DNA of 64,000 nucleotides from Chthoniobacterales bacterium (GTDB taxonomy: Bacteria; Verrucomicrobiota; Verrucomicrobiia; Chthoniobacterales; UBA6821): assembly GCA_019747735.1 (NCBI GenBank), contig JAIEQL010000014.1, forward strand, positions 73,013 through 137,012, in the 5' to 3' direction. The notes beneath the pieces were generated by a model. It saw only the letters and a program-made list of their open reading frames with translations, was not told the origin of the DNA and searched no databases. Made by a program: the position numbers and the translations under genes. How positions within the stretch are numbered: the stretch's first letter is position 1; each line of letters begins with the position of its first letter. Shown piece by piece: positions 1-61,270 of the stretch.

Positions 1-3000
1 CGCTTTTAGTTGCTCCCATGCGCGTGAGCGCGATGATGGAAGCGGACAAAAAAAAGGAGCGTAAAGAGTCGGGTGGTTCTAAAGAAACTCTCAAAAAGAA
101 CACCGACGAAAAGTGGTCTGAGGCCCATGAAAAAACAGCTGAAAGAGTTAACAATCCTGCGGCTAATAACAACACAGAGACTGAGGGTGAGATGTTTATT
201 GAGAAGAAAGAGATCATCGAGGGTGAGGCTCTGCAATCGTTTCCCAATGCTGATGCTAGGCTGAACTTGTCAGAATCTCACGCTGATGAAGAAAGCGACG
301 ATAACTCTCTTTTAAATATAGCGACCTTGGAACAAAGAATCCAAGAGGCTCGGGAGATCATTGCTGATTTGGGTGGAAAAGGAACAGCGATTTCAGAAGA
401 AGAACTCTGCGATCTTTTTAAAAAATGGTCAGAGCGAAACGAGCGTTACCAAAGAGAATTGCAGTCAAGTGATCTTGAGCATAGAAACGATATTGGACTA
501 ATTGCAAAACAGCAAATCGAAGATCGGCTAACAGAGCTTGTACAGGCTTCCGGCAAGGCTGTGGAGGCGCTTCAACAAAGCTTAGAGAACTTTACTCGAA
601 ATAACGCAACGCGTGCTGGTAATCCCAGCTGTTTGAAAGATTCACAGCGCTGGTTTATCGAAAAGAAAACAGCTCCAGTAGCAGAGGCTGTGTTAGACGA
701 ACAACAACAACCATATTTTCTAGAATGTCTTGCACGCGTAGTCACAAGGGCCTCACTCAAAGAAGATCCTCACTATGCTCTCGCAGAGGTCCTCTGGGAC
801 GAACGAGAACAAGCATGGGAAAAACATCATGAATACTACAAACTCAAGCAACAAAAAAAGAACGCCTTAATTATCGCCCAAGAAAAAGCCAAACAAGCCC
901 TTGAAGTAGATGAAAAGAGAGATGAGACACAGCTTGGTCAATTTAAACAGAAACTAGAACAAGTGGCCCAAGCACTCCACTACGTTCCCGAACCACATAC
1001 CCAGCTCCTTGCGACAGGAATGGACACAGCAGCTTCTGCGGTTGATTGGATCAACTTCATCTGGACAAAGCACAGACTCCACCAAGTAAGAGCAGACGAA
1101 AATGAGGCAATTAAAGCTCACCAAAAAGCAAAAGAGGCGGCTAAAGGTGCCACCATCAATATCACTGGGAATCAGCCTGAAGAGACTGAGAAGAGACTGC
1201 TTGAGCAAGAAAAAGAAACCACAAAACAACTAGCCAATGGGCTAAGACCTCAAGCAGGTTGGGGAGAACATGCATGGGAAAGCTGGAGCAATCGACTGCT
1301 AGGAGATCTTTCCTATGATGAGAAAAGAGACTTTATTCGACAGGGCCAAGAGAGCCAAAAAAGCCGAGGCTGGATCGTAGAGCAAAGTGCCACGGCTTGG
1401 AAAGACCGACAGAACGAATCCAAAAAACAACTAGAACTCCTTACTCGCGAAAACAAAAAAGTGATTGCCTCACTTGAGACGGCTCATCATCGCTTAGAAA
1501 AAAACCTCCAAGAAAAAGTTAAAAAAAGCGAAAATCAACGGGATCTTTTTCAAGAAGCACATGCTAAAGCAATAAAATATAAAAAACGCATCGAAACCTT
1601 CTTGGAAGAATATTCTCAAGAGCAAAGCAAAGAATGGAACCAGCGAAAAATTGATCAAGCCCAAGAAACTTTTCGAAGTGATTTTAACAACCTCATTGAC
1701 AACTACAGGTGGATAGGAAAACACGAAGCAAGTTGGAACGAGTCTCTAGAGCTTCAAGGGCAGGCAATACTCGAGGCTAAGAAAACCTCCCAAAAACACG
1801 AATCAACGTTTAAAAAATACCAACGTCTTCTCCATCGCGCAGAGAGGCAGTTAGAAAACGACCAAGAACAACTTCGACAAGTCTGGCCCGAGTACGATAC
1901 CACCTTTCGTCCCTACTTGGCATGGGAACTCCCTTTTCATGAAGAAACCATCTCCGCCTCCATACCAGTAAAAACTACTTTCAAAAAAAGTGGCATCATC
2001 GAACCTCCCGTTATTCCTAAAGAAGAACGGGAAGTAAAAGGACGCCATTTGCTCTATCAGTTTCAACGAGCTATAGAAAAAGAACTCAATTTTTCTTTAA
2101 TTGCTCCTTTAGGGCTTCAAGAAGAGGGCGAACAAATTTCTCCTTCCAAAACAGAAACCATCTCCTCTTCCAAGAGCGATATAAAAAGCGAAACAAGCGA
2201 AGAGAGAACACTCTCCCCTTATGAAGCGCTTCTAGTCTGGAGCAGAGAGCAAGTGAATAAACCCTCTATTGCTGATAGACAACGTTGGAAAGCACGCAAG
2301 CAATTTGAAGAAGCGCATCAAGAAACGAGAAAACTTTTTCGACTTTTAGAAGAGCGTAAAAACTATCTAGTAGAAGAACAAGGAGCATCAAGAACTCTTA
2401 AAGGAGAGTTCAACAAATCAGATAAAGGAAACGCTTCAGCTGAAAATTTGAAACTTACCCCAGAAGCATTGGCCTCCCATGCCAAGCAATACCGTCTTGT
2501 AACGCAAAAAGAAGATAAACCTTTAGCAGAAGTAGCAACCAATGCTTCCTGGAGAACAAAGTTCACAGAAAAAACGCGCTCCTTTTTTAGTCGCTTTACA
2601 ACAAGCACTGGAACCGTTTTTGAAAACCGCTCCTTAACAGTGGCCTCCATTGAACTACAAATCCAACAAGCACTCCCTATTGAAAAAAAAGCTGAAGAGC
2701 GATGGTTAACCTTGATGAACCATGCAGAAGTAGCTCGCTCTGCTCGAGAGAAAAACTCACTGGGCACTCCAAAACAGATAGAAAAAATCTGGGCAGAAGC
2801 AGATCATGCGGCTCTTAAAAAACAGCAAGAAGCAGAAGGTCTTCTTCAAGAAAAAAGAGAGGCCGATGCAATGCAAACGCATTGGGACGAAAGCAACCTG
2901 CGCTGGAGAGCTCTTGCTGAAGAAATCCAAGCAGGCAAAGAAGGAAGAGCACCAGCACTATTGTGGGACCACTACGCACAACAACAGGCAAGTATCCTCA

Positions 3001-5648
3001 CGGCTCAAAAAAAAGGAGGAACAGCCCTCACTGGCGCTCTAGAAAAACTAAAAGCCTTTGATGAAGCTGTCCTAACACGCTGGCATCAACTTCAAAGCCC
3101 CAAAGCAATTGATACTCCAGAAGAAGACTACCTCAATCAACTCAGCCTCACTCTTAATAAAAAAGGAGAAGAGATTTTTAAAACAGCCGTGACGTGTGAA
3201 CTAGGAATTAAAAAATATAAACAACTTACCAAACAAGAAGCACTCCGAGCCGCAAGAGAAAACACTCCAAAAGCAGCCGAGGCTTGGAAAGAACGCATTC
3301 GAGACAACCAAGAAAAAATAGAGACATGGGAAAAGAAATGTGCTGATGACATAACTTCCAAACAAGAAACCTCAGAAACAAGAAACATTCGAGACCTTCT
3401 CCCACAACTACGAGGAATCCTGGAAGCCGATCAAAAAGCTCAATCACTTTTTGAAGAAGAAGAAAGACGCCTCAGCCGCATTGAGAAAATTTGGAAAAGC
3501 ATCCAAGAGGCAAAAGAAAAAGCAACCTTCCAAAAAGCCCAAGAGGCCGCTCTACGCTACCATCAAGGAGATCGAAGGTCCTGGGAAGAAGAACTGACCG
3601 AAGAAGAACGCCAGGCTTACAACAACCACCTCGATAAAAAAAATCAATCGTATGACCAAAAACTAGCTAATGAAGAGAGAGAGCTAGAACAAACCCGTCA
3701 AATCCTCGAAGAGAAACAGCAAAAAACAGAACGATTTCTTTCTCGTCTTGTAGGAGGAATTACAGGGCAACAGCAGGCAACACTAGATGCCATCAGGGAG
3801 GCACAAGAACATTATGATAGAGGCTATCAACAATGGGCTGAACAAAAAGAAGAACTCCAATGGGGAAGTTTTGAAACAGCGGAAGAATATCAAAAAGCAA
3901 TAGCTCAAAAACGTCAGGAAATTACTACACGAGAGAAAAGAAAAAACGAAAAAATATTTTTAAACGTTGTTAGCTCTGTGTTAGCAGAAGGTGCTCCACT
4001 GTTTGCAGAAGAAGGGACATTTGTTCGAGCTGCATATGATAATGCGGTCAAGTATTGGAACAATTCTGCTCAAAGGAGGTTGTCTGGAAAAACGGGGAGC
4101 TGGTTTTGGACAGTAGCAGCCTTTAACAATCTTAATAATAGACTCAAGGGAAAAGAGGGAGTCTCTGCAGCGTATCAACAAAATCTTGTTAAGTACATTT
4201 TGGACCTGGTCATTGCTTATGAAAAAGCTGCCAAGCAAGAGAAAGCTGCTCAATTCCAGATAGCAGATTCTTATCACAAAGCAATTTTTTCGTACTATGG
4301 AGCAATCGAAAACGAAAGAGAGGCCTTTGTCTCATCAGAAGAGGGAGAGAACGAGTTAGCACAGTATGAAAGACAGCTTTCCTCTTATCAAAATAGTCTG
4401 GGAGATGTCTATTTCCAAATGGCCAGACAAGCAGCGAAAAATCCGCAACACGTTGAAAACTACCGTCAAGCCATCCCTTTTTATAAGCAAGCAATAGAGA
4501 ATGAAGAGGCTGCGATAACTTCATTTCAAGCAGGAGAGAAGAAGCTAGCAGAGCATCAAGAAGCTCTTTCTGTGTTACAACAGGCTCTTGGAGAGACTTA
4601 TTGGCTTGCAGCACGTGAAGAAGCAACAGGAAATCTGTATCACGCAGAAAATTATCGCCCAGCCATTTTTTTATATGAGCAAGCAATAGAGAGTTACAAA
4701 GCTGCGATAGTCTTCTTTCATGCGGGGGAGAAAGAACTAGCAAAGTATCAAAAAGATCTTTCTGATTCTCAACGTAAGGTGGGATCTGAATATTTCACTG
4801 CAGCATTTCTAGGAGCAGGAGATAATATGCAGAATGCAAAAAACACTCTTAAAGAGATCCCTCGTCTTGAACAGTTGGTGGAAAATCGAAAGCAACTTGT
4901 CAATTATCAACATAATCTAAGAAATGCCAATTGCTCTGCAATCGAGCAAGAAGCAGCAGGGAAGCCTCAGTTTGCAGTTGGTTATCGCCAAGCGGTTCCT
5001 TTTTTTACACAAGCAATAGAGAGCACAAAAGCTGCCATAGACTCATCCTACGGGAATGAAAGCAAAAGAGAACTAGCAGAGTATCAAGGATTGCTTTCTA
5101 CTTGTTATAACTATGAGGGATGTAGCCATCATTGGAATGTTTATTATCAAGTTAAAGAAAAACCTCCACTAGCTTCTTTAGCCTTAGAGATAGGTTCTTT
5201 TTCTAAGAATGCTGTCACCAATCAAGAGGCTGTTTTAGCTTTTTGGAGTCAGGCTGAATTAGCTGCTCCTTGGGATCGAGGAAAGCTGCGAGCATTGGCA
5301 TCTATACAACAAGAGAAGACACTCTTTATTTTACTCAAGGTAAATACATGGCGCTGGGAAATAGTTCGCCAAGATCAGAGTGAGACAAAAGTTCCTGATT
5401 CTAGAAAAGAAGAAGAGGCAAGATTAAGTGAAGTTGTCGCTCTTTATGATCAGCTTTTTTCTGCTTACCAAAAAGCACCTTGGGAGCTTTCTACCAAAGA
5501 GAGGGAACGAACCACATTATTGAGTAAAGCCTGGAAAACTTATAATGAGGCCATAGAGCGTCTTGGTGAAAACAGAACAGAGGAAGCTCTGCAATTAAAG
5601 CGCGAGGTTGAAGAATACCTCCGAGCTGTTCTACTGAATTATCCTTAA
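1..5648 (+). CDS. giant secreted K/E/Q/W-rich alpha-helical repeat protein, paralog 1 (5' end cut by window edge)
   Basis: The open frame continues upstream of the listed Met: nt 3-17 read LLVAP before MRVSAMM, matching the signal-peptide ends of the ORFs at 37445..40300 and 40539..44312. Shares their N-terminal module. No recognisable catalytic domain. Confidence 0.8.
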   Translation, partial: LLVAPMRVSAMMEADKKKERKESGGSKETLKKNTDEKWSEAHEKTAERVNNPAANNNTETEGEMFIEKKEIIEGEALQSFPNADARLNLSESHADEESDDNSLLNIATLEQRIQEAREIIADLGGKGTAISEEELCDLFKKWSERNERYQRELQSSDLEHRNDIGLIAKQQIEDRLTELVQASGKAVEALQQSLENFTRNNATRAGNPSCLKDSQRWFIEKKTAPVAEAVLDEQQQPYFLECLARVVTRASLKEDPHYALAEVLWDEREQAWEKHHEYYKLKQQKKNALIIAQEKAKQALEVDEKRDETQLGQFKQKLEQVAQALHYVPEPHTQLLATGMDTAASAVDWINFIWTKHRLHQVRADENEAIKAHQKAKEAAKGATINITGNQPEETEKRLLEQEKETTKQLANGLRPQAGWGEHAWESWSNRLLGDLSYDEKRDFIRQGQESQKSRGWIVEQSATAWKDRQNESKKQLELLTRENKKVIASLETAHHRLEKNLQEKVKKSENQRDLFQEAHAKAIKYKKRIETFLEEYSQEQSKEWNQRKIDQAQETFRSDFNNLIDNYRWIGKHEASWNESLELQGQAILEAKKTSQKHESTFKKYQRLLHRAERQLENDQEQLRQVWPEYDTTFRPYLAWELPFHEETISASIPVKTTFKKSGIIEPPVIPKEEREVKGRHLLYQFQRAIEKELNFSLIAPLGLQEEGEQISPSKTETISSSKSDIKSETSEERTLSPYEALLVWSREQVNKPSIADRQRWKARKQFEEAHQETRKLFRLLEERKNYLVEEQGASRTLKGEFNKSDKGNASAENLKLTPEALASHAKQYRLVTQKEDKPLAEVATNASWRTKFTEKTRSFFSRFTTSTGTVFENRSLTVASIELQIQQALPIEKKAEERWLTLMNHAEVARSAREKNSLGTPKQIEKIWAEADHAALKKQQEAEGLLQEKREADAMQTHWDESNLRWRALAEEIQAGKEGRAPALLWDHYAQQQASILTAQKKGGTALTGALEKLKAFDEAVLTRWHQLQSPKAIDTPEEDYLNQLSLTLNKKGEEIFKTAVTCELGIKKYKQLTKQEALRAARENTPKAAEAWKERIRDNQEKIETWEKKCADDITSKQETSETRNIRDLLPQLRGILEADQKAQSLFEEEERRLSRIEKIWKSIQEAKEKATFQKAQEAALRYHQGDRRSWEEELTEEERQAYNNHLDKKNQSYDQKLANEERELEQTRQILEEKQQKTERFLSRLVGGITGQQQATLDAIREAQEHYDRGYQQWAEQKEELQWGSFETAEEYQKAIAQKRQEITTREKRKNEKIFLNVVSSVLAEGAPLFAEEGTFVRAAYDNAVKYWNNSAQRRLSGKTGSWFWTVAAFNNLNNRLKGKEGVSAAYQQNLVKYILDLVIAYEKAAKQEKAAQFQIADSYHKAIFSYYGAIENEREAFVSSEEGENELAQYERQLSSYQNSLGDVYFQMARQAAKNPQHVENYRQAIPFYKQAIENEEAAITSFQAGEKKLAEHQEALSVLQQALGETYWLAAREEATGNLYHAENYRPAIFLYEQAIESYKAAIVFFHAGEKELAKYQKDLSDSQRKVGSEYFTAAFLGAGDNMQNAKNTLKEIPRLEQLVENRKQLVNYQHNLRNANCSAIEQEAAGKPQFAVGYRQAVPFFTQAIESTKAAIDSSYGNESKRELAEYQGLLSTCYNYEGCSHHWNVYYQVKEKPPLASLALEIGSFSKNAVTNQEAVLAFWSQAELAAPWDRGKLRALASIQQEKTLFILLKVNTWRWEIVRQDQSETKVPDSRKEEEARLSEVVALYDQLFSAYQKAPWELSTKERERTTLLSKAWKTYNEAIERLGENRTEEALQLKREVEEYLRAVLLNYP

Positions 5649-24623: not shown

Positions 24624-24763
24624 GAGTCTAATTCAAATGCGCTGCTGAGGATGCAGGACAAGGAACGAGGAGCACAGACCCGCAGTGTATATGGAAATAC
24701 TCGAGGAGGCGAGCACCGAAGTGACGCAGTCCTGCGCCTTAGCAGTAGCATTTGGATAGACTC
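24624..24763 (+). repeat. family A palindromic element, copy A1 (own arm type)
   Basis: Arms gagtctaattcaaatgcgctgctg / cagcagtagcatttggatagactc flank a core that is about 59/69 identical to A2 by hand alignment. Its right end overlaps the ahcY stop codon. Confidence 0.8.
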
Positions 24764-29942: not shown

Positions 29943-30045
29943 CTTTTTCCTTAAGACTGTGTTCTCATCCTTCAGGTTCTCTTTGGATAGCCTAGAGGGT
30001 GTCTTGAAAATGAATAAAATGGCTGTAGTTTTATTTAAAATGCTC
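29943..30045. repeat. mosaic of short repeat modules W-Z-X-Y with no core
   Basis: W ctttttccttaagac recurs reverse-complemented at 61381. Z ctcatccttcagRttMtctttggatagcc recurs at 61336. X gagggtgtcttgaaaatgaataaaat is the A2/A4 left arm. Y ggctgtagttttatttaaaatgctc recurs at 44783-44808. Confidence 0.75.
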
Positions 30046-34375: not shown

Positions 34376-34515
34376 AGAGTGTCTTGAAAATGAATAAAAT
34401 TGATGCAGTACCAGGAGCGAAGCGCACAGACCCGCAGTGTATATGGACATACTCGAGGACGCGAGCACTGGAGCGACGCCGTAATGCGCAATTTTAGTCT
34501 TTTCAAGACACCCTC
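34375..34515 (+). repeat. family A palindromic element, copy A2
   Basis: 141 nt with ~38-nt imperfect arms gagagtgtcttgaaaatgaataaaattg... / ...caattttagtcttttcaagacaccctc. TTA lies on both sides (34372-74 and 34516-18). Nearly identical to A4. Confidence 0.88.
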
Positions 34516-36057
34516 TTAACCAGCCTTCGAATATTTGCGAACGGGACCTTTGCTAAAGTTTTTTTTAGCAAAACTTCCGCTCCTCTCCCCGCCTCGCCGA
34601 GCATCACCACGAAGACCTTGACTACCGCGGCCTTCTCTATCTCGACTGCGCCCTCCTCCTTCTCTTCCACCTTTGTAATTTTTGCTACGTGCGAAATGGG
34701 CATCTTCTGAATCACGATCTCGTGAGTTTGTTGATTTTTCTTTAGCTGGAAGTGAGGGAACATCTGAACAAGAGCCTAGCAAGAGCGAGAAAAGAGCTGA
34801 GGAAATATCAGTTGAGTTATGACCTGCTTCTAAAAGGCGATCCATGATAACATCATGCTTTTTAAAAGAAGCAGTTTCGAGCGTCTTAACAAGTTTCGCA
34901 TAAAGTAACTCAGCCCGCTTTCCTTCAACCTCTCCAACTGTAGGAATAACGCCTCGATGAATTTTTGTTTTGGTATAACGCTCAATAAATTGAAGTTTAT
35001 AAATGTCACGACCACTGACAAAAGTTACTGCCATTCCCTTTTTTCCAGCGCGGCCTGTACGACCAATACGATGCACATAATCTTCGGGATCGTAGGGCAA
35101 GTCGTAATTGACAACGAGCTCTAGATTATCGACATCAATACCACGCCCTGCGACATCAGTCGCCACGAGAAATTCGAATTCCGAATTTTTGAATTTGTTC
35201 ATCACTCGCGTGCGCTGCGCCTGTGGAATCCCTCCATGCAAACGATCTGTTGAAAAACCCTGGGCAAGCAATGCATCAGCCAACTCATCGACCATCCGTT
35301 GTGTGTTGCAAAAAATAATACCGAGCTTGTAACCATGAAAATCAATCAAGCGAATGAACGCTTCCGTTTTCATACGCGGTGGAACTTCATAAAACCATTG
35401 CTCTACCGTTGGCACCGTGAGTTCTTTTTGCTCAATTTTCACCATCTGAGGATGGCGTGAAAAACGATTAATCAAGTCGCGAATCGGCTTAGAGAGGGTC
35501 GCTGAAAAGAAAATGGTCTGGCGTTCTTGAGGCGTACTCTCAAGAATTTTTTGAATATCATCACGAAAACCCATATCGAGCATCCGATCAGCTTCATCAA
35601 GAATGACCATTTTCAATTGGTTCAATTTTAGAGTGCCACGCTCTAAGTGATCAATAAGACGTCCTGGCGTTCCAATGACAATTTGAACTCCTTTTTTGAG
35701 TTCGAATAATTGTCGGTCATAGGAAGCACCTCCATAAATAGGAACGCAATGAATAGAGCGTTTAAAAGCAGTCAACTTATAAACTTCGTCTGCTACTTGA
35801 GTTGCCAGCTCGCGTGTGGGACAGAGAATAAGAATTTGCACAGCTGTAATGGCAGGATCAATTTTTTCAATCGCTGGGATGGCATAAGCCGCTGTCTTGC
35901 CAGAACCTGTTTGAGACTGCCCTACCACATCAACACCTGACATCAAAATGGGGATTGCTGCGGTCTGAATCGGGGAAGCTTCCTCAAAACCGAGCTGAGC
36001 TACTGCCTTAATAATTTCTTGGGAGACTCCAAGAGCCTCAAAGGTACGTTTTTCCAT
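34516..36057 (-). CDS. DEAD-box ATP-dependent RNA helicase with an RG-rich C-terminal tail
   Basis: Q motif, GSGKT, DEAD, SAT and HRIGRTGRAG motifs. The tail reads GGREGGGRSRDREGRGSQGLRGDARRGG. Confidence 0.92.
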   Translation of the reverse strand: MEKRTFEALGVSQEIIKAVAQLGFEEASPIQTAAIPILMSGVDVVGQSQTGSGKTAAYAIPAIEKIDPAITAVQILILCPTRELATQVADEVYKLTAFKRSIHCVPIYGGASYDRQLFELKKGVQIVIGTPGRLIDHLERGTLKLNQLKMVILDEADRMLDMGFRDDIQKILESTPQERQTIFFSATLSKPIRDLINRFSRHPQMVKIEQKELTVPTVEQWFYEVPPRMKTEAFIRLIDFHGYKLGIIFCNTQRMVDELADALLAQGFSTDRLHGGIPQAQRTRVMNKFKNSEFEFLVATDVAGRGIDVDNLELVVNYDLPYDPEDYVHRIGRTGRAGKKGMAVTFVSGRDIYKLQFIERYTKTKIHRGVIPTVGEVEGKRAELLYAKLVKTLETASFKKHDVIMDRLLEAGHNSTDISSALFSLLLGSCSDVPSLPAKEKSTNSRDRDSEDAHFARSKNYKGGREGGGRSRDREGRGSQGLRGDARRGGERSGSFAKKNFSKGPVRKYSKAG

Positions 36058-37444: not shown

Positions 37445-40300
37445 TTAAAAAACATCGAGGTGGATATTACCTTCTACCCAAGGATTGATAGCCTTGCGCC
37501 ATTCAAAATTAGATTGACAACCAGTCCATGCAAAGGGAGGTTTTTCTACAATTTTGCCTGATTTTTTATCTTGAACCTGGCGAGAGCCTTTAAATTTATC
37601 TGAAGGAAAGCGATAGCGTCGAAGCCCATCAGCACTTTCTAAGCCATACCAACCATTTGTCTCACCCCAACTATTCGGGCCACGAGGAGATACATTTGAT
37701 TCATAATAATTGGGGCCCACCCATAATTTACCAAGTTCATTAGAAGCCTTGGTTGAAACAGCTGTCTTTTTTGGATATCCATCCATAATTTCAAAGAGAT
37801 TAGGCGTACCTCCTTTGTTTTTAATACGCTCTATAATTGGCTCAGCCCACCTTTTTATAATTTCTTCGGGAGAAAAATGATTAGAAGAAATAAAAACATC
37901 ACTTTCTATTTTTTTTACTACAGAAAAATATTTTTGCATGAGTTCCACTATTTCTCTTTCTTCTAAAGTAATTTCATCATCACTCGGGCGCAGTTTTCTC
38001 TTTATTTCATCAAAAGCATCTATCAATTTTTGAAGAAATTTTGTTGTTGTTAATTTAGGTCTGCTCACTGCAAAGAGTGACATCCTATCGGTTTTAAAAA
38101 TTTCCTCTGTGACTTCATGTTGTTTTTCTATATTAGCTAAAATCACCTCAGCTGAGGGCTGGCCTACTAATTCCCTTAAGGCATTCTCGCATTTTTCAGC
38201 CAATTCCAAGGCCTTAACTAAAGGCTCATTGAATATCTTGTGACGGAGGCAATTTTCAATAAATTCTCTTGCAGCTTCAGGAACAATATCTTCATAGGCA
38301 TTCAGAACAAAAGGATCTTGAGCATTGTTCATTATTTGCTGGAGCTGCTCTAGCGCATCTTTGCAAGCGATAGAATTAGCTAGAGGCAATTCTTCCCTGT
38401 ATGGAGTAAATAATGGTTTGTTGACTCCATCAGGAAAAAATTTATCTCTGAATTGCATTAATTTCTTAGCTAGCTTTTTTTTCTCTTTTTCAAACGCACC
38501 TAGCCCATCGTATTCTTTGATGAGATCACCAATCTTAGCTTTGGCTTTTGTGCTCCTAGTTGCACCGGCAACATCTTCAAAAGACCTTTTTCTGGAAGCA
38601 AGATATTCTTGATAAACAAAAAATTTCTGAGCCTGTTTTATGCTGCATTCTATTTCACTACGCTTTAGTATTATCTCTTGTTCTGTTGACTCTAAATCGT
38701 GCTGCATCAACCCAACTTCTTCGCTATTACCATCGTTCTGATCTGCTATTAATTTTTTCAGTTGCTCTTCTAACAAAGCTGATCTCTCTTCTAGCCTCTC
38801 TAATTGCTTCGATCCTTCCTCTATGGAGCCTAATTCTTTCTTTAATGTTTCTAAGTTGCCCACATGAGTAGCTGCCTGTTTTATTTCCGATTTATACTCT
38901 TTAGACTCACAATAGTTAAGAAGATCTTGTTTATCCATTTTACCAATTTCTTGAAGTGGCATGATCCTTGGCGACAGCAGCTGTTTAAAAGCACTCAACC
39001 GCTCTTGAGCTTTTCGAGCCATTTCAGGAAAGACTTTATCTCTACACTGAGCCAATTTTTTCTGTTCTTCTTGGCCAACGAGAGTCAGCTCCTTGTATAT
39101 TTTTGTAATCGCAGCAAGTTTTTCCTTTTGCTCTTGTTGATTTTCAGACTTAAGTTTTGAACGCAATGTGCTAAGAGCTTTGCCTCTAGATAAAAGATAT
39201 TTTTGATAGTGAAAAAACAACTTGCCTTCTTTCATGACATCGCTGGTTGCACCCTTGATTTTCTCGCTGATTACTTGTAGCCCTTGATTACCAATGACCT
39301 TCCAGAGCTCATCTAAATTTTTTTTAAATGCTGCTACAAGTTCACGCAGGACAGGCAATTTGATTTTCGTGTACACAAGTTCAAGGAGATCATAACCAGA
39401 GAGATCATTTAGCCGTTCTATTTCTTCAACTGAAAGAGATTTTCCGTTAGCGCAATCTATTGCTCTCATCATGAGATTAAGCTCTTTGGCACTTAATGCG
39501 TTATGCCAAGGTTCCATTAAATTATTTTTTATTTTCTCCTTCCATTCAACAGAAGCAACACATGACAAAAAGCTCTCTCTAATTGCCCTGTTTTCTGCTC
39601 GAGTGTTAGGTGAAAAAACAATTTCCTCTTTAGGTTCAATTCCTTTTTCTGTGATAACTAGTCGTGTTGCTTCTGGGTTTTCATGAAAAGCTTTTTGAAA
39701 ATTAGCTAATAAACTTTTTCGGAGCGCCTCTACTGCATCGCAGGAAGCCTGCACAAGCTCTGTTAGGCGATCTTCAATTTGCTGACCCGCGATTGTTCCA
39801 ATGTTGTTTGCTCGTCCAAGAACATCCGCCTTCTCTTTGTAGCGCTCGTATCGATTGCTCCATTTTTGATAAAGCTCACGGAGTTCTTTTTCTGAAATTG
39901 CAGTCCCCTTTCCTCCTAAATCAGCAATGACCTTTCGAGCCTCTTGGGTTCTTTGTTCCAGGATATCTAGATTCGAAAGATTTTCCTCTTCCAAGAGGTC
40001 CCGGGATCGTGGAACCGCCTCCTTTTTTGGACTTGTAAGAATCTTTCCTTGGCCATCACTTGATTCATTACTTTCGCTCTTGAGGAGCACGTTCTTGACA
40101 GAAGCAGAAGGAACATAACTTGTCCCAACGTTATTGATAAGCCCCCGCTCTTCTTCCTCTTTGCTATATTTTCCAGCCTTTTCAGCCTCTTTACTCTTTG
40201 AGTCTTCGTCGTTTTTTGTTTCTGCTTTCATCATCGCGCTCACGCGCACAGGCGCAAGCACAAGGAGGATTAGGAGTAGCAAGAAGGAAAGTTTTTTCAT
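37445..40300 (-). CDS. giant-family paralog 2: secreted helical protein with a non-helical W/G/P/N-rich C-terminal domain
   Basis: 951 aa. Signal peptide MKKLSFLLLLILLVLAPVRVSAM, the shared N-terminal module, a long K/E/Q-rich helical body, and a last ~120 aa of different composition. Confidence 0.85.
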   Translation of the reverse strand: MKKLSFLLLLILLVLAPVRVSAMMKAETKNDEDSKSKEAEKAGKYSKEEEERGLINNVGTSYVPSASVKNVLLKSESNESSDGQGKILTSPKKEAVPRSRDLLEEENLSNLDILEQRTQEARKVIADLGGKGTAISEKELRELYQKWSNRYERYKEKADVLGRANNIGTIAGQQIEDRLTELVQASCDAVEALRKSLLANFQKAFHENPEATRLVITEKGIEPKEEIVFSPNTRAENRAIRESFLSCVASVEWKEKIKNNLMEPWHNALSAKELNLMMRAIDCANGKSLSVEEIERLNDLSGYDLLELVYTKIKLPVLRELVAAFKKNLDELWKVIGNQGLQVISEKIKGATSDVMKEGKLFFHYQKYLLSRGKALSTLRSKLKSENQQEQKEKLAAITKIYKELTLVGQEEQKKLAQCRDKVFPEMARKAQERLSAFKQLLSPRIMPLQEIGKMDKQDLLNYCESKEYKSEIKQAATHVGNLETLKKELGSIEEGSKQLERLEERSALLEEQLKKLIADQNDGNSEEVGLMQHDLESTEQEIILKRSEIECSIKQAQKFFVYQEYLASRKRSFEDVAGATRSTKAKAKIGDLIKEYDGLGAFEKEKKKLAKKLMQFRDKFFPDGVNKPLFTPYREELPLANSIACKDALEQLQQIMNNAQDPFVLNAYEDIVPEAAREFIENCLRHKIFNEPLVKALELAEKCENALRELVGQPSAEVILANIEKQHEVTEEIFKTDRMSLFAVSRPKLTTTKFLQKLIDAFDEIKRKLRPSDDEITLEEREIVELMQKYFSVVKKIESDVFISSNHFSPEEIIKRWAEPIIERIKNKGGTPNLFEIMDGYPKKTAVSTKASNELGKLWVGPNYYESNVSPRGPNSWGETNGWYGLESADGLRRYRFPSDKFKGSRQVQDKKSGKIVEKPPFAWTGCQSNFEWRKAINPWVEGNIHLDVF

Positions 40301-40388
40301 GAAGGAGGAAATTGTTTTTTATGAAAACTAGAGAAAAACCAAAGAGTCATAAAGAAAGTTTTAAGGAAATAAAGCCCCCCTGTTTTTT

Positions 40389-40560
40389 TATAATATAGTC
40401 AAATTACTTAGAAATTACATGAAAGAACGCAGAGATTTTTAGAAAAGGCAAGGCCGAAGAGCGAGCGCTATATCTTATAACGGGAGTAATGAGAACGCAG
40501 TCTTTTCCTGAAAAGATCACGTCAATTTTGTGTAATTTCTAAGTAATTTGACTATTATGA
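40389..40560. repeat. 172-nt palindromic element (family D; arms ataata(ta)gtcaaattacttagaaattaca)
   Basis: Arms of about 30 nt at 40389-40419 and 40531-40560 are complementary apart from a 2-nt indel. The right arm encodes the last ~8 codons and the stop of the 1257-aa ORF. Confidence 0.8.
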
Positions 40561-43500
40561 GTTAATTTTTTTTCTGCCTTAGAAGAAAGCTCTCGTGCTT
40601 TTTTTTCAGCGGCTTCTGCTTTAAGATTGTGTTGTTTCTTATCCGCTTTGGAATATTGCTTTGCAGCTTGCTCCTTTTCCGTTGCAGCTACGATCGATTG
40701 CTCAAGAGCATCAGTCGCCAAACGTGTTGCTTCTAGCAGATTTGCTTTTTGCTGCTCATTTCCCGAAGCAGAAGAGTTCATTGCTTGCACATAATATTGG
40801 CGAGCTTGTTCCAATTGACTTTTTACCTGTTTTGGAAATTCGGAGCCGCTTTGTTTTTTTTCTAGAATTTTTAAAAGGTATTCATCAAGCCTATCGTCGA
40901 GCTCTTCTAAAACAAAAGTGTGATTACTGAAAGGTTCGCCAGCAGTAACATTTTGAACTCTCTCTGTTTTTTTAATGAGCTTGGCAAGGAGTTGTTGAAG
41001 TTCTTTTTTTTGTTCTTCAAACTTCGGTCCTAATTCTTTTTTCTCCTTAGCAGCATTAAGCTCCTCTAGATTATTCTTGAGCATTGCCTCTACTGCTTGT
41101 GCCACTCTATTCCAAAGATGGTAATTTTTTTCATTATCTTCTAAAGTTGCTCTCAAGGCATTCATAAGATAGTCAAATACTGCTTTCTCTCCTGTGCGTA
41201 AACTTTGTAAAGCAGCCTCACCTTTTTGATTCCATTTTTGTTGTTTTTTGCCACCTGTCTTAAAATCAGGCTGAGCTTGAAGGTCTCTTTCTATCTGATT
41301 GACCCGATCACTGATCTTTTTCCAAGCATTAAATGATAAAGCTTGAGCTAATTGAGGATGAATTGCTAGTTTCTTCAACTGAGCAATTCTCTGGCATTGA
41401 TTAGGGTCATTAGTTTTAAAAAACAAAAGTGTCAGCGCTGCTTCTTGTTCTTTAATTTCAGCAAGCTCTTTTTTTCCTGCCTCCATCATGGTGGCTGCTT
41501 CCACAAATAAATCGCTAGCAGAATGGAGTGCTTGAGCCTCTTGAAGGGAGGTGTTATTTAATATCCCTTCGTTTCTTTTTTTAGCTGCATCATTAAGATG
41601 TTGAGCAGCTCGTAAATAAAATTTAGAAGCAGTTGGTGTTTCTTTAGCTTCTGCCTTAATAAAGAGGCGAGCAGCATTTTGAAACTCCTCCCCTACTGTG
41701 AGCAGTTGTTTGCGAGTTTCTGGCTTGTCAATGGCATCTTTAATACTCTTTTCAGCAGCTGAGAGAGCCTCTATTGTTTTTTTCCAGTTATTATCGTAAT
41801 AATAAGAACCATAAGAACGGTTAGCACCACTAGCATTTTTTCTCAATAAAGCTCTCTCGAGACAAAGCCCCTGTAGGTGCATTAATAATAACATCTTTTC
41901 ATCATCAAGAGCTTTTTGTTTGAGAGCCTTTTCTCCATATTCAATAGCTTGATCATAATCTTTAAAAAAATCACCTGTAGCATAAGAAAAATTATTCAGA
42001 ATAGCCTCTTTTGCGAGAGCCTGAGCTGTTTGGAAATAAAGATCGTTATAGGAACGTATGGCTTCTTCATCCAAAGGAGTCGAGGATGGCTGAATTTTGG
42101 AAATATAACTTCCTATCTTCTCTAAATAAGGTTTGCTCTCAGTAAAAAAGGGCTCATAAGAGTTCAATTTTTCTTTTTCTTTTTTCAGTTGCTCATCCAT
42201 TTGCCTCAACTCATTCTGATTACTTTCTTCCCAACTTCCCCTTGCTCGACGTTCTGCTAGCTCAAAATAATGTTTGATCGCTTCTTGATAGCTTTTCATT
42301 TTTTCCATCAGCAATGCTGTCACTTCTGGGAAGGTGCCTTTCTCTAACGTAGAAATGAGAGCATTATGATTGATCGCTTTTTGCCAATAATCTGATGCAG
42401 TGTTAATGTGCTTATCAAAAGGCTCATCGTAGCCATAGTAGTAGCGCTCACTAGAAGATAAAGAAGCCTTCTTCATCCTCTCAGTTTTGCTTTTCAAGGC
42501 ATCAATTTTTCCTCGAATAGTACTCTCATCATCATTCTCTATAGCAGCTGCATTCACTAAATGGACAGTAGCATCTTGAAAATAGAAGATCCCTTTTGTC
42601 CATAATTCAGCCAGGTCTGAATGAATTGCCCCGTCAGCTTTCTTTTTAAGGGAAGCGGCATAAGAGGATTGCTCTTTGATTTGAGTCGTTATGTTTTTGG
42701 CTGCTTCTACCAAGGAGTTAGCAATAGAAGAAGCATGAATCTCTCTCTTTCCATTATTTCGTTGAAAATAATCAGCTGCTATTTTCCAGAGAGTTGCTAC
42801 TTGCTGATGTGGTGACTTGGCGGCTTTAGTAAGGCACCAAGCAGCCATAAACTGATCATTCCATTGGTCTAGATTTTCTTTTTTTTCAATATGGTCTGCT
42901 ATTTCAGTCCATAAAGCAGCCAGCCTATCGTCTCTATTTTTCTTAGCTTCTTGAGCTCGAATTCGATAATCTTTAATGAAATCCTCTTGGTTTTTTTCGG
43001 CTTCATGAAATTTACGAACTAAAATAATATTGGGATCCAAGTGCGTTTCAGCCCGATTCTCAACTTGAGATTTCCTGTTTTTCATTACTGTCCAATAGCT
43101 TTTCTCTGTTTTATATCCCATTATTCTTGCTTCTTCTTCCTTTGCAAAAACATAGGCCTGCCACGCAGCGAAAGTACCTAATTTTTTTGTGGTAATATTT
43201 CTCCAAAGATTTGAGAGGTGATGGTGTTGAGCTTGCTCAGCCTCGTTAGCTTTGTCGATGAAGCCTAGATAAAAGCGTGTGTCTTTATAAAATTCCTCGC
43301 CGCTATGATAATAATAATATTCCTTCTGCTTAAGTATATTTTCAATAGCCTCCAACCCTCTAGCAGTAGGAAACAACTCACTGGCAGTTTTAACACATAA
43401 AATCAGATCATTTGCTACGTCATTATTTACTTGAAGTGCTTTTTTACTAAACCCCATTTCTAAGAGATATTCTCTAATCCAGTCTAAAGAATAGTAGTGT

Positions 43501-44312
43501 GCAACAAAGATCTTGAAGGCCTTTTCTGTTAACCATTGCTTTGCTTTTTCATTTTTTTTCGGTTGTGGAGCTTTCAATGAAATCTGCTCTAGAGACTTCA
43601 CAGCAGGAGGTGCAGAAATTTCTTTTCCTGGGCTGAGAAGCTCCTCTGTGTTGATTAAAGTAGAACGCACCGTCTCATCATGAGAAAAACGACTTAAGCT
43701 TTTGGTAATCTCTTCAAGAACCTGGGAAGAGATTGTTACTAGCTCTGCAAGTCTTTCTTCAAGGAGCTGATGCTCGATACCAGTTTTTTCTAAGTTAGAA
43801 AACTCCGCCTGAGCTTGTTGATAGTGCTCACAATGATTAGCCCATGTTTCATAAAGCTCGAGAAGCACTGGTTCTTCAAGTGGAAGCCCTTTTCCTGTTA
43901 ACTGGGCAATCACCTCCTGAGCCTCTTTAGTTTTTTGTTCTAGGACATCTAAATTAAAAAAATTCTCGTTAAAGGGATCAGCTCCATAGTGTTTTACTTT
44001 GGATGCCTCTCCTGCTATTTTACTATCAGTCCCTTGATCCAGGAATTCCGAAGCTGCCTCTCCTATTGATTCCTCGTTAGAGCTACTGCTCTCACCTTCA
44101 CTCTTCCAAAAAGCCTTTGTTGTACCACCGCGGCTTGGTCCAACACTTTGGATAAGGTCCTTCTTTTGTTGCTCCTCGCTGGATTTTAGAATCTCTTTCT
44201 TTTGTGATTTTTCCTGTTTCTGATATTCTCCTCCTCTTTTTATCATCGCGCTCACGCGCAGGGGTGCCAGCACAAGGGCGCTCAAAAGCAAAAGAAGAGG
44301 AAATTTTCTCAC
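40539..44312 (-). CDS. giant-family paralog 3: secreted K/E/Q/W-rich helical protein
   Basis: 1257 aa with an apparent GTG start. Signal peptide (M)RKFPLLLLLSALVLAPLRVSAM and the shared N-terminal module. Recurrent (L/I)W..a...Y/F helix-repeat motifs. Confidence 0.85.
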   Translation of the reverse strand: MRKFPLLLLLSALVLAPLRVSAMIKRGGEYQKQEKSQKKEILKSSEEQQKKDLIQSVGPSRGGTTKAFWKSEGESSSSNEESIGEAASEFLDQGTDSKIAGEASKVKHYGADPFNENFFNLDVLEQKTKEAQEVIAQLTGKGLPLEEPVLLELYETWANHCEHYQQAQAEFSNLEKTGIEHQLLEERLAELVTISSQVLEEITKSLSRFSHDETVRSTLINTEELLSPGKEISAPPAVKSLEQISLKAPQPKKNEKAKQWLTEKAFKIFVAHYYSLDWIREYLLEMGFSKKALQVNNDVANDLILCVKTASELFPTARGLEAIENILKQKEYYYYHSGEEFYKDTRFYLGFIDKANEAEQAQHHHLSNLWRNITTKKLGTFAAWQAYVFAKEEEARIMGYKTEKSYWTVMKNRKSQVENRAETHLDPNIILVRKFHEAEKNQEDFIKDYRIRAQEAKKNRDDRLAALWTEIADHIEKKENLDQWNDQFMAAWCLTKAAKSPHQQVATLWKIAADYFQRNNGKREIHASSIANSLVEAAKNITTQIKEQSSYAASLKKKADGAIHSDLAELWTKGIFYFQDATVHLVNAAAIENDDESTIRGKIDALKSKTERMKKASLSSSERYYYGYDEPFDKHINTASDYWQKAINHNALISTLEKGTFPEVTALLMEKMKSYQEAIKHYFELAERRARGSWEESNQNELRQMDEQLKKEKEKLNSYEPFFTESKPYLEKIGSYISKIQPSSTPLDEEAIRSYNDLYFQTAQALAKEAILNNFSYATGDFFKDYDQAIEYGEKALKQKALDDEKMLLLMHLQGLCLERALLRKNASGANRSYGSYYYDNNWKKTIEALSAAEKSIKDAIDKPETRKQLLTVGEEFQNAARLFIKAEAKETPTASKFYLRAAQHLNDAAKKRNEGILNNTSLQEAQALHSASDLFVEAATMMEAGKKELAEIKEQEAALTLLFFKTNDPNQCQRIAQLKKLAIHPQLAQALSFNAWKKISDRVNQIERDLQAQPDFKTGGKKQQKWNQKGEAALQSLRTGEKAVFDYLMNALRATLEDNEKNYHLWNRVAQAVEAMLKNNLEELNAAKEKKELGPKFEEQKKELQQLLAKLIKKTERVQNVTAGEPFSNHTFVLEELDDRLDEYLLKILEKKQSGSEFPKQVKSQLEQARQYYVQAMNSSASGNEQQKANLLEATRLATDALEQSIVAATEKEQAAKQYSKADKKQHNLKAEAAEKKARELSSKAEKKLTHNSQIT

Positions 44313-44637
44313 TGTTGGTTTTTTAGAGTTGGTTGGATTTTTCTAGAAAATTAGAGCGATAACAAATAGCAAAAATTTACTTCAACTTCAACTTCAACTC
44401 ATCTCTATTTTTCTAGTGAGCATCATGACTTACAACGCTTTTAATAAGATCACTTCTTACAAATCAATCACTAAAATTAACGCATATAGTTAAAAAAGAC
44501 TTTGACAAACACACTGATTAATATCTATTATTTCCTATCTGAGAGTTGAAAAACTCATCCAGTGTAAGACAACATACTTCCCCCCTACCTAGGAAAAACC
44601 AATTCTTGTTCCCCCCAAGAACATCACTATTGGGCTA

Positions 44638-44777
44638 GAGCATATTAAAAAATTCTGTAGCCGCTTCATTGCGTCGTCGCTTCGGTGCTCGCTCCATCGA
44701 GTATTGGCTATACACTCCCTCGCTGTGCGCCTCAGCTCCTGGCACTGCATCGACTACAAAAAATTTTAATGATGCTC
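44638..44777 (-). repeat. family A palindromic element, copy A3 (inverted core, Y-type arms)
   Basis: Arms gagcatattaaaaaattctgtag / ctacaaaaaattttaatgatgctc. The core is the reverse complement of the A2/A4 core with scattered substitutions. TA flanks both ends. Confidence 0.8.
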
Positions 44778-44811
44778 TAAGATGGCTGTAGTTTTATTTA
44801 AAATGCTCTAA

Positions 44812-44952
44812 GAGGGTGTCTTGAAAATGAATAAAATTGATGCAGTATCAGGAGCGAAGCGCACAGACCCGCAGTGTATATGGACATACTCGAGGACGCG
44901 AGCACTGGAGCGACGCCGTAATGCGCAATTTTAGTCTTTTCAAGACACCCTC
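44812..44952 (+). repeat. family A palindromic element, copy A4
   Basis: Differs from A2 at 2 positions by hand comparison. TAA flanks both sides (44809-11 and 44953-55). Preceded by a solo Y arm at 44783-44808. Confidence 0.88.
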
Positions 44953-45010
44953 TAAATGGCTGAATATTTATCCCCACCTTCGCAGGGACAAGCTTGACAG
45001 TTACTCCCTC

Positions 45011-60790: not shown

Positions 60791-60841
60791 AAGGGACTTT
60801 TCTCATTGCACAAGCAAAGGCACCTGCTTACTAATAGTCCC

Positions 60842-61266: not shown

Positions 61267-61270
61267 TAAC

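What the first reader, a model, noticed from the sequence alone, without database searches (positions are those of the whole stretch)
37445..44312. Family of giant secreted helical proteins with a shared head and unrelated bodies
Two tandem minus-strand ORFs (951 and 1257 aa) and the >1876-aa ORF at 1..5648 share three parts. They start with the same signal peptide (..LLL..LVLAP[VL]RVSAM[MI]). A K/E/S-rich spacer follows. Then comes a ~95-aa module (NL..LEQ.TQEA..VIA.L.GKG....E.L.EL...W......Y....[QL]IE[DE]RL[TA]ELV......EAL.KSL). Paralogs 1 and 2 are about 80% identical at DNA level across this module by eye. After the module the bodies differ completely in length and sequence, yet all stay K/E/Q/A/W-rich and predicted helical. 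Together they cover 12,278 nt, about 19% of the window, in an otherwise compact housekeeping genome. I recognise no described domain, no dedicated secretion genes, and no immunity or chaperone gene next to them. A conserved head with variable bodies is the layout of polymorphic surface or effector families.
Basis: partly seen in the sequence, partly recalled or inferred. Interest (0 to 1): 0.8.

Follow-up and report, generated by a model that had tools for sequence, protein, structure and literature searches.

The report
Shared-head secreted toxin/effector protein family
Three very large genes in this uncultured Verrucomicrobia (Chthoniobacterales) genome belong to a narrow family of at least 14 exported proteins per genome that share a signal peptide and a small three-helix "head" but carry different cargo; one copy in the window ends in a recognisable bacterial RNase-type toxin domain, so this is a new version of a known way of building a toxin/effector arsenal.

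Summary
W951 (37445..40300 -), W1257 (40539..44312 -) and W1893 (..5648 +, 12 codons cut off by the window edge) share three parts. These are a Sec-type signal peptide, a disordered charged spacer, and a ~95-aa head that models confidently as a three-helix bundle with no known relative. The head occurs in only 22 protein clusters out of 1.8 billion. At least 14 of those proteins come from this one Chthoniobacterales MAG. None was found in pattern-seeded scans of GTDB representative genomes or JGI metagenomes.

The bodies are a patchwork. W951 and W1257 have unique bodies. W1893 shares its body with paralog P0014 and its 64-aa repeats with P0017.

It matches a profile built only from proteobacterial Rhs/CdiA C-termini (four of five followed by an Imm8 gene) at E = 5e-15, and it keeps the DGx+xhR motif. 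Seven paralogs outside the window carry a Tox-ARC (NAD-cyclase/glycohydrolase) module and two carry subtilisin.

No immunity, secretion or mobile-element gene lies nearby, and GC3 looks native. The best reading is a Sec-exported toxin/effector arsenal with a lineage-specific constant leader, analogous to Neisseria MAFB-N and Amoebophilus APD1/2. This is a new variant of a known kind. The target and the role of the head are inferred, not shown.

The parts
37445..40300 (-). W951: 951-aa family member (signal peptide, spacer, head, helical body, C-terminal toxin domain). The database gene call for it (P0001, 849 aa) starts at codon 103 and so lacks the signal peptide.
40235..40300 (-). W951 signal peptide, residues 1-22 (MKKLSFLLLLILLVLAPVRVSA|MM). 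SPase-I type with V at -3 and A at -1; no lipobox.
   Evidence: sequence features only; SignalP not run
39986..40234 (-). W951 K/E/S-rich spacer, residues 23-105. Modelled as disordered (pLDDT about 30). Residues 1-104 are 100% identical to paralog P0002.
39701..39985 (-). W951 head module, residues 106-200. Three-helix bundle.
38561..38857 (-). W951 residues 482-580: two long helices (482-520 and 526-580). This is the only confidently modelled part of the body (pLDDT 70-92), read here as an antiparallel coiled-coil hairpin.
37448..37759 (-). W951 C-terminal Ntox7-type toxin domain, residues 848-951. It has LGKLWVGP, DGLRRYRFPSDK and QSNFE, and ends GNIHLDVF-stop.
40539..44312 (-). W1257: 1257-aa family member with a GTG start. 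Its body (residues ~216-1257) has no detectable relative.
44247..44312 (-). W1257 signal peptide, residues 1-22 (MRKFPLLLLLSALVLAPLRVSA|MI).
43686..43967 (-). W1257 head module, residues 116-209.
1..5648 (+). W1893: 3' 1881 codons of a 1893-aa family member (P0007). The first 12 codons lie left of the window.
3..32 (+). W1893 signal peptide, C-terminal part (residues 13-22, LLVAPMRVSA|MM).
309..593 (+). W1893 head module, residues 115-209.
4254..5162 (+). W1893 residues 1430-1732: four ~64-aa helical repeats (Y[RH]xA[IV]xxYxQAIE...). They are shared with P0017 from another sample.
40301..40538 (.). 238-bp spacer between the tandem genes. It holds no plausible ORF, so no immunity gene sits between them. 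The upstream regions of W951 and W1257 are not similar to each other.

Best explanation
The three genes belong to a lineage-restricted multigene family of Sec-exported, mostly alpha-helical, modular toxin/effector proteins.

Each protein starts with a constant leader. The leader is an SPase-I signal peptide, then a disordered charged spacer of about 80 aa, then a three-helix-bundle head of about 95 aa. A polymorphic cargo follows. The cargo is built from helical repeats and coiled coils, and in several members it also carries enzymatic toxin modules. In the window, W951 carries a C-terminal Ntox7-type domain, which is a predicted BECR-fold RNase. Paralogs elsewhere in the genome carry Tox-ARC NAD(P)-cyclase/glycohydrolase or subtilisin modules.

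Proposed mechanism:
1. The signal peptide takes the protein across the inner membrane through Sec.
2. The shared head acts as a common handle. It could serve outer-membrane passage, surface anchoring, or homotypic clustering and assembly.
3. The long helical body acts as a stalk or binding scaffold.
4. The cargo domain acts on a non-self cell.

Many full-length paralogs coexist, scattered among housekeeping genes and without adjacent immunity genes or silent cassettes. This suggests they are deployed in parallel as an arsenal, as proposed for the Amoebophilus APD1/APD2 effectors. It does not look like serial swapping, as in classical CDI/Rhs loci. The likely targets are non-kin cells, either a eukaryotic host or prey, or unrelated bacteria.

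Shown here: family membership, leader architecture, restricted distribution, mosaicism, toxin-domain homology, absence of nearby partner genes, and native codon composition.

Inferred: actual export, the role of the head, catalytic activity, and the target. W1257 and W1893 have no recognisable catalytic module. Their role as non-enzymatic effector, adhesin or scaffold is inferred only from family membership.
For: Leader shared by all three window genes and by all 22 clusters, with the head always at about residues 85-245.

Head model: pLDDT 86, three helices. The spacer models as disordered. The N-terminal segment is the only hydrophobic one.

Family size and distribution:
- At least 14 paralogs carry K2W99 locus tags or sit on the same 144-kb contig.
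- Pattern-seeded scans of GTDB representative genomes and JGI metagenomes found no relatives.
- A degenerate version exists in the sister MAG.

W951 toxin domain:
- tblastn hits fall at the extreme C-termini of Rhs, VENN-CdiA and hemagglutinin-repeat proteins. Four of the five used (all that have annotation) are followed directly by an Imm8 gene.
- A profile built only from those five proteobacterial domains scores W951 residues 848-950 at 51 bits, E = 4.7e-15.
- All 10 invariant columns are kept, and the protein ends a few residues after the N-x-H motif, like the toxins.
- The motif and the Imm8 link match Ntox7 as defined in PMC3482391.

Other modules: the Tox-ARC profile hits PDB 9ro8 'ADP-ribosylcyclase toxin' at 3.7e-5, 9ouf at 1.4e-6 and Aplysia cyclase at 6.5e-4, and Pfam Rib_hydrolayse at 5e-5. 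S8 peptidase scores 1.5e-34.

Mosaicism: for W951, the nearest paralog is P0002 for signal peptide plus spacer (100%), P0004 for helices 1-2 (78%) and W1893 for helix 3 (73%).

Selection and origin: head dN/dS is 0.4-0.6. GC3 is 31-34%, against 35±6% in neighbouring genes.

Independent assembly: W1257 was assembled independently in a Logan contig.

Precedent for the principle: PMC3482391 section 37.
Against: - No immunity gene lies next to W951, and no Imm8-like ORF exists anywhere in the window (best E = 0.41). Classical Ntox7 toxins normally have one.
- No secretion system gene is in the window, so passage across the outer membrane is unexplained.
- W1257 and W1893 have no detectable catalytic domain in Pfam, NCBIfam, PADLOC, PDB or plasmid tblastn.
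- The W951 toxin domain could not be modelled (pLDDT below 35), so the BECR fold is unverified.
- Ntox7 itself is a computational family with no published biochemistry that I could find.
- There are no expression data.
- The rest of the MAG could not be inspected, because its contigs are not in the searchable collections.
- The lifestyle of the organism is unknown.
Confidence: 0.55

Rival explanations
1. Classical interbacterial polymorphic toxin system. The proteins would be contact-dependent or diffusible antibacterial toxins used against close relatives. Cognate immunity genes such as Imm8 or Imm74 would be encoded elsewhere in the genome, for example in a poly-immunity locus.
For: In all characterised contexts, Ntox7 and Tox-ARC are interbacterial toxin domains paired with Imm8 or Imm74. 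The layout of constant N-terminus and variable C-terminus, and the recombination among copies, are the hallmarks of such systems.
Against: No immunity ORF lies downstream of W951: only 34 bp separate it from a convergent housekeeping gene. None lies between the tandem genes or anywhere in the 64 kb. There are no orphan toxin cassettes. The ARC module sits just after the head rather than at the C-terminus. Many full-length paralogs coexist rather than one locus with cassettes.
Confidence: 0.2
2. Structural envelope proteins. The family would form a periplasmic or surface coat, or a cytoskeleton-like scaffold of long helical proteins held together through the common head. The toxin-like modules would be exapted or inactive.
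For: W1257 and W1893 consist only of helical, K/E/Q/A-rich sequence and repeats with no catalytic domain. The head is a simple three-helix bundle that resembles spectrin repeats only generically. The genes sit among housekeeping genes and have native codon usage.
Against: Structural paralogs would not be expected to have completely unrelated bodies. Three different enzyme or toxin modules recur in the family, with their catalytic or invariant residues intact. The family is absent even from close relatives, which argues against a core envelope role.
Confidence: 0.15
3. The ORFs are not functional genes. They would be assembly chimeras caused by the repeated 5' region, or decaying remnants.
For: This is a MAG. 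Short-read contigs from the same samples break at or near these genes. The database gene call for W951 is truncated. Head dN/dS is only moderately below 1.
Against: Uninterrupted ORFs of 951-1893 codons in a 40% GC genome cannot arise by chance. W1257 was assembled identically in an independent Logan contig. The invariant residues of the head and of the toxin domain are kept. dN/dS is below 1.
Confidence: 0.03

Closest known systems
Amoebophilus asiaticus APD1/APD2 effectors (Zhang et al. 2012, PMC3482391, section 37)
   Same: A lineage-specific constant N-terminal domain sits after a signal peptide. The C-termini are extremely polymorphic and include polymorphic-toxin-type domains. Many paralogs are deployed in parallel, and immunity genes are not a feature. 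Ntox7 is listed with 'T2SS (APD1)' trafficking.
   Different: APD proteins have a lipobox, and the window copies do not. The head here has no sequence relationship to any Pfam or NCBIfam model. An 80-aa disordered spacer precedes the head. The bodies are giant helical arrays of 950-2470 aa. No ubiquitin-system or other eukaryote-type domains were found. The host association of this organism is unknown.
Neisseria MafB toxins (MAFB-N / DUF1020) and Microscilla-N toxins
   Same: Sec signal peptide, genus-restricted constant N-terminal domain, polymorphic C-terminal toxin. Ntox7 is among the MafB-linked toxin domains.
   Different: MafB genes sit in islands with mafA upstream, mafI immunity downstream and orphan cassettes. 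None of these is present here. There was no Pfam DUF1020 hit.
Rhs / CdiA toxins with an Ntox7 C-terminal domain and Imm8 immunity
   Same: The last ~100 residues of W951 are homologous to their C-terminal toxin domains, with the same motifs and the same position at the very end of the protein.
   Different: The delivery scaffold is entirely different: there are no RHS/YD or FHA repeats, no VENN or PT-HINT pre-toxin motif, no T5SS or T6SS context and no Imm8 gene.
Streptomyces umbrella toxins (UmbC; PMC11062931)
   Same: Large exported polymorphic toxins. Degenerate helical repeats and long coiled-coil stalks carry a variable C-terminal toxin domain. W951 has a confidently modelled long helical hairpin and a C-terminal toxin.
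   Different: UmbC uses a TAT signal, ALF repeats, UmbA/UmbB partner genes and usually a downstream immunity gene. None of these was detected here.
Phytoplasma SVM (sequence-variable mosaic) effector family (from my own knowledge, not tested here)
   Same: A conserved signal-peptide region is shared by otherwise unrelated secreted effectors, with mosaic evolution.
   Different: SVM proteins are small, and only the signal peptide is conserved. There is no folded head domain and there are no toxin modules.

Membership tests
Ntox7 (predicted BECR-fold RNase toxin; Zhang et al. 2012) | DGx+xhR motif | tested here: met
   W951 has D-G-L-R-R-Y-R at residues ~892-898. The two R and the following K are invariant across W951, P0013 and five proteobacterial toxins.
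Ntox7 | Conserved N motif, and location at the extreme C-terminus of a large secreted protein | tested here: met
   Q-x-N-F and N-x-H are invariant. W951 ends 4 residues after H, as the Rhs/CdiA toxins do.
Ntox7 | Significant profile similarity to toxin domains that pair with Imm8 | tested here: met
   An HMM built from five proteobacterial C-terminal domains (four followed by an Imm8 gene; the fifth record, Rhizobium, has no annotation), without the query, scores W951 848-950 at 51 bits, E = 4.7e-15, and P0013 at E = 1e-5. Imm8 was confirmed by Pfam at 2.9e-38 and 4.9e-19.
Ntox7 | Cognate immunity gene (predominantly Imm8) immediately downstream | tested here: not met
   Only 34 bp separate the W951 stop from a convergent HI0933-like gene. 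An Imm8 profile finds nothing in the six-frame window (best E = 0.41).
Ntox7 | BECR (Barnase-EndoU-ColicinE5/D-RelE) fold and RNase activity | tested here: inconclusive
   The AlphaFold model of this region has pLDDT below 35. There is no PDB relative. Activity is not testable in silico.
Polymorphic toxin system (sensu Zhang/Aravind) | N-terminal trafficking element shared by proteins with alternative C-terminal toxin domains | tested here: met
   The signal peptide and head are shared. Ntox7, Tox-ARC, S8 and unknown bodies alternate among members.
Polymorphic toxin system (sensu Zhang/Aravind) | Immunity gene downstream, and silent toxin/immunity cassettes | tested here: not met
   None in the window. 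The loci of the other paralogs could not be fetched.
Lineage-specific constant N-terminal domain toxins/effectors (MAFB-N, Microscilla-N, APD1/2 class) | Globular domain after a signal peptide, conserved among paralogs and absent outside a narrow lineage | tested here: met
   The head models at pLDDT 86. It occurs in 22 clusters out of 1.84 billion representatives, all from K2W99, K2W97 or a few Logan runs. Pattern-seeded scans of GTDB representatives and JGI metagenomes found none.
MAFB-N (DUF1020) / APD1 / APD2 as sequence families | Sequence homology to those domains; lipobox (APD) or mafA partner (MafB) | tested here: not met
   There is no Pfam hit on the leaders. There is no Cys or lipobox in the three window copies. 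There is no partner gene. APD1/2 models were not available, so direct comparison with them was not possible.
Tox-ARC (ADP-ribosyl cyclase toxin) | Profile match with conserved [ST][DE], S, E residues | tested here: not met
   The module is absent from the three window proteins (no VFW[TS]G site and no similarity to the ARC-bearing paralogs beyond the head; no Pfam Rib_hydrolayse hit). It is present in seven paralogs: P0006, P0010, P0012, P0014, P0015, P0018 and P0021.
Umbrella toxin UmbC | TAT signal, eight ALF repeats, umbA/umbB neighbours | tested here: not met
   The leaders are Sec-type with no twin arginine. The neighbours are housekeeping genes. ALF repeats were not specifically searched for because no model was available.

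The most novel reading that the evidence does not exclude
The spacer plus three-helix head could be the recognition tag of a so far undescribed export or surface-assembly route in Chthoniobacterales. This route would handle 1000-2500-residue helical proteins. The family would then be the host- or prey-directed effector arsenal of an uncultured verrucomicrobium that lives with, or preys on, eukaryotic cells. That would explain why RNase and NADase toxin modules are kept without immunity genes.
Probability: 0.2. Interest if true: 0.75.

Novelty: new variant of a known kind. Interest (0 to 1): 0.55.

Why it matters
Secreted toxin or effector families with a constant, lineage-specific N-terminal handle are known from only a few organisms (Neisseria, Microscilla, Amoebophilus). 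How such handles work has not been solved. This finding adds a clear case from Verrucomicrobiota. The head is small, confidently foldable and new. The cargos are unusually large and helical. The 14 or more paralogs together encode about 22,000 residues (67 kb) in one genome.

The family offers a tractable test of what such heads do. It extends Ntox7 and Tox-ARC to a new phylum and a new delivery scaffold. It also flags this uncultured lineage as probably engaged in antagonistic or host-directed interactions.

There is a practical point too. The public gene call for W951 omits the signal peptide, so automated annotation would not recognise it as secreted.

Tried and rejected
- Pfam, NCBIfam and PADLOC scans of the three proteins gave nothing significant. 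The PDC-M46A hit (E = 3e-6) lies on K/E-rich helical sequence and I treated it as compositional.
- Pfam and NCBIfam have no model that detects the Ntox7-type domain, even in the proteobacterial toxins.
- PDB sequence searches of all three bodies and of the toxin profile found no relatives.
- Foldseek of the head gave only generic three-helix bundles (best E = 0.34). Foldseek of the whole W951 model was meaningless because the model is poor (pLDDT 52).
- tblastn of the W1257 and W1893 bodies, and of segments of P0003 and P0017, against plasmids found nothing useful.
- Self-BLAST found no internal repeats at E < 0.01. Profile methods were needed to find the W1893 repeats.
- The 66-aa repeat of P0008/P0009/P0021 is not present in the window proteins, and hhalign could not link it to the W1893 repeat.
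- Promoter and terminator scans were at chance level.
- The contigs of the other K2W99 paralogs could not be fetched, so their neighbourhoods remain unknown.
- Literature searches for the MAG, the SRA runs or a described host association returned nothing.
- I rejected horizontal acquisition or a mobile-element context. GC3 is native and no integrase or transposase lies nearby.
- I rejected a lipoprotein reading for the window copies because they have no Cys. P0008, P0009 and P0021 do have an 'LSAC' lipobox-like string.

Full report
**1. Observation**

The region holds two tandem minus-strand ORFs, W951 (37445..40300) and W1257 (40539..44312, GTG start). A plus-strand ORF ends at 5648. Its frame is already open at base 3 and reads LLVAPMRVSAMM. 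The full protein in the database is 1893 aa, P0007, and begins MPKLLFFLLLSA.

Alignment of the N-termini shows the shared signal peptide, a K/E/S-rich spacer and a ~95-aa conserved module. A profile of the module finds exactly these three copies in the six-frame translation of the window (E = 1e-37 to 7e-46; next best 0.44). The N-terminal segment is the only hydrophobic stretch in each protein.

Past the module, BLASTP finds no similarity among the three bodies. The three genes sum to 12,278 nt, 19% of the window.

Over the head the values are 62% (W951/W1257), 74% (W951/W1893) and 56% (W1257/W1893). Local 60-nt windows reach 83% only for W951/W1893.

**2. Organism and context**

ArgRS and the family members point to an uncultured Chthoniobacterales (Verrucomicrobiota) MAG with NCBI locus tags K2W99_ and a 144,289-bp contig. 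The nearest representative genomes have 73-76% identical ArgRS.

The neighbouring genes are housekeeping: gatA, PAP2, pdxJ, a sigma factor, a DEAD-box helicase, an HI0933-like flavoprotein, argS, a class-II aaRS, nrdB, dihydroorotase, the dap operon, folK, panB, metK, ahcY, serA, glk and recN-like. There is no secretion, immunity, chaperone or mobile-element gene.

Relatives lack giant genes downstream of argS. GC3 of the three genes (31-34%) lies within the housekeeping range (35±6%). Their lower overall GC comes from amino-acid composition, not foreign origin.

**3. The family**

Exhaustive HMMER of the head profile against 1.84 billion cluster representatives gave only 22 proteins. The head always sits at about residues 85-245.

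At least 14 come from the same MAG:
- the three window proteins;
- P0008 and P0009, on the same 144,289-bp contig;
- P0002, P0003, P0006, P0010, P0012, P0013, P0014, P0015 and P0021.

Together these total about 22,350 residues. Others come from Logan assemblies of two SRA series. One degenerate version comes from the sister MAG K2W97/JAIEQF. It is a 146-aa ORF with a signal peptide and partial head, followed by a separate helical ORF. Pattern-seeded scans (which need a match to short head peptide patterns) found no relative in GTDB representative genomes or JGI metagenomes.

**4. Anatomy**

AlphaFold2 on the head alignment gives a three-helix bundle (pLDDT 86, pTM 0.78). Foldseek against the PDB returns only generic three-helix bundles, with nothing below E = 0.3. 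The fold is simple and the sequence family is new.

In the full W951 model the spacer (residues 24-103) is disordered. The body is mostly helical but of low confidence, apart from a long helical hairpin at 482-580. The last ~100 residues are non-helical and unmodelled.

The bodies across the family are a patchwork:
- W1893 aligns with P0014 over 1143 aa, and its four 64-aa repeats recur in P0017.
- P0008, P0009, P0021, P0014 and P0015 share a 66-aa repeat.
- P0015 and P0021 share about 1100 aa.
- The bodies of W951 and W1257 are unique.

**5. Toxin modules**

The W951 C-terminus looked to me like a polymorphic-toxin end. tblastn against plasmids then hit the extreme C-termini of several proteins:
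- a Variovorax Rhs protein;
- Pantoea VENN-motif and hemagglutinin-repeat (CdiA-type) proteins;
- a Phytobacter Rhs fragment;
- an unannotated Rhizobium ORF.

Each annotated hit is followed directly by an Imm8 immunity gene.

An HMM built from the five proteobacterial domains alone scores W951 residues 848-950 at 51 bits, E = 4.7e-15. It scores an internal segment of P0013 at E = 1e-5. Ten columns are invariant across all seven sequences (G, S, R, R, K, Q, N, F, N, H). W951, like the toxins, stops a few residues after the N-x-H motif.

Zhang et al. 2012 define Ntox7 as a predicted BECR-fold RNase with the motif 'DGx+xhR, N' and Imm8 as its predominant immunity protein (PMC3482391). W951 reads DGLRRYR. 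No Pfam, NCBIfam or PDB entry covers this domain.

Seven paralogs outside the window carry a module just after the head. Its profile matches PDB 'ADP-ribosylcyclase toxin' 9ro8 (3.7e-5), 9ouf (1.4e-6), Aplysia ADP-ribosyl cyclase (6.5e-4) and CD38. It also matches Pfam Rib_hydrolayse just below threshold. This is Tox-ARC. P0008 and P0009 carry subtilisin domains.

No Imm8-like ORF exists anywhere in the window. No ORF lies between the tandem genes. Only 34 bp separate the W951 stop from the convergent neighbour.

**6. Evolution**

Different leader segments of W951 have different nearest paralogs:
- signal peptide plus spacer: P0002, 100% over 104 residues;
- helices 1-2: P0004, 78%;
- helix 3: W1893, 73%.

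This indicates recombination or gene conversion among copies.

An 18-nt block (GCGCGTGAGCGCGATGAT) is identical in all three window copies. It varies synonymously in other strains, which is consistent with concerted evolution within the genome. Head dN/dS is 0.4-0.6. Formal GENECONV/RDP tests were not possible because the DNA of the other paralogs was not available.

**7. Interpretation**

The best-supported reading is a Sec-exported toxin/effector arsenal with a lineage-specific constant leader. The closest described principle is the class of lineage-specific N-terminal domains downstream of a signal peptide. This class includes MAFB-N in Neisseria, Microscilla-N, and APD1/APD2 in Amoebophilus asiaticus. 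Zhang et al. proposed that these domains mediate surface anchoring or clustering, and for Amoebophilus that the effectors are deployed in parallel.

The present family is not a sequence member of those families. It differs in several ways:
- it has a long disordered spacer;
- it lacks a lipobox;
- its bodies are very large and helical;
- the ARC module sits next to the head;
- it lacks partner and immunity genes.

Umbrella toxins (UmbC) are a looser analogue: helical repeats, a coiled-coil stalk and a C-terminal toxin.

Export, the role of the head, enzymatic activity and the target are all inferred. W1257 and W1893 have no recognisable catalytic module and may be non-enzymatic effectors, adhesins or scaffolds.

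The rivals are classical kin-directed toxins with immunity encoded elsewhere, structural envelope proteins, and non-functional ORFs. They are weighed in the Rival explanations section.

**8. Verdict**

This is a new variant of a known kind. Interest is moderate to good for specialists in bacterial toxins and effectors and in PVC biology.

Noticed in passing
window 44808-44956; 34371-34519; 24650-24737; 29993-30048; inverted partial copy 44667-44751: A dispersed REP/MITE-like intergenic element of about 150 nt. 44808-44956 is 97% identical to 34371-34519 and 84% identical to 24650-24737. All copies lie just past gene 3' ends, often between convergent genes. Upstream of W1257, two copies in opposite orientation form a hairpin of about 400 nt (RNA fold z = -7.8). 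There is no Rfam match. Short-read contigs L001, L082 and L085 end inside it.
   Followed up: partly
window 39995-40300 (-): The public gene call for W951 (P0001, 849 aa) starts at codon 103 (MEEENLSNL...). It therefore omits the signal peptide and spacer that 20 homologues share. Automated annotation would miss that the protein is exported.
   Followed up: yes
window 20-37 (+), 40230-40247 (-), 44242-44259 (-): An 18-nt GC-rich block, GCGCGTGAGCGCGATGAT, encodes RVSAMM. It is identical in all three paralogs, including synonymous sites, while homologues from other samples differ synonymously. This could be a short gene-conversion tract or a nucleotide-level constraint.
   Followed up: partly
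window 44379-44399: A perfect hexamer tandem repeat (ACTTCA x3.5 on the + strand; GTTGAA/TGAAGT on the gene strand) lies about 70-85 nt upstream of the W1257 start codon. It could be a simple-sequence contingency site; this was not tested.
   Followed up: no
window 60840-61268 (+): Bacterial RNase P RNA class A (200 bits, full length). No tRNA genes were found in the 64 kb.
   Followed up: yes
L082 1645-3783 and 3819-4961: In a Logan contig from SRR15085122, a 712-aa family member (P0004) is followed 35 bp later by a separate 380-aa S8 peptidase ORF. This may be a split or frameshifted version of the head-plus-subtilisin fusion seen in P0008 and P0009.
   Followed up: no
L091 7977-8417 and 8700-9881 (sister MAG JAIEQF010000036.1): Downstream of grpE-dnaJ in the sister Chthoniobacterales MAG there is a 146-aa ORF with a signal peptide, an acidic spacer and only helices 1-2 of the head. 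A separate 393-aa helical-repeat ORF follows. This is either a decayed or an ancestral small form of the family.
   Followed up: partly
proteins P0008, P0009, P0021 (outside the window): These paralogs have 'LLLSAC' in the signal peptide, a lipobox-like string absent from the window copies. Some family members might be lipid-anchored, as proposed for Amoebophilus APD proteins.
   Followed up: no
window 12759-13640 (+): A class A beta-lactamase-family gene sits directly upstream of surE-dapF-dapA-dapB-folK-panB in one co-directional block.
   Followed up: no
window 52159-53292 (+): A 377-aa ORF with no Pfam match, among housekeeping genes.
   Followed up: no
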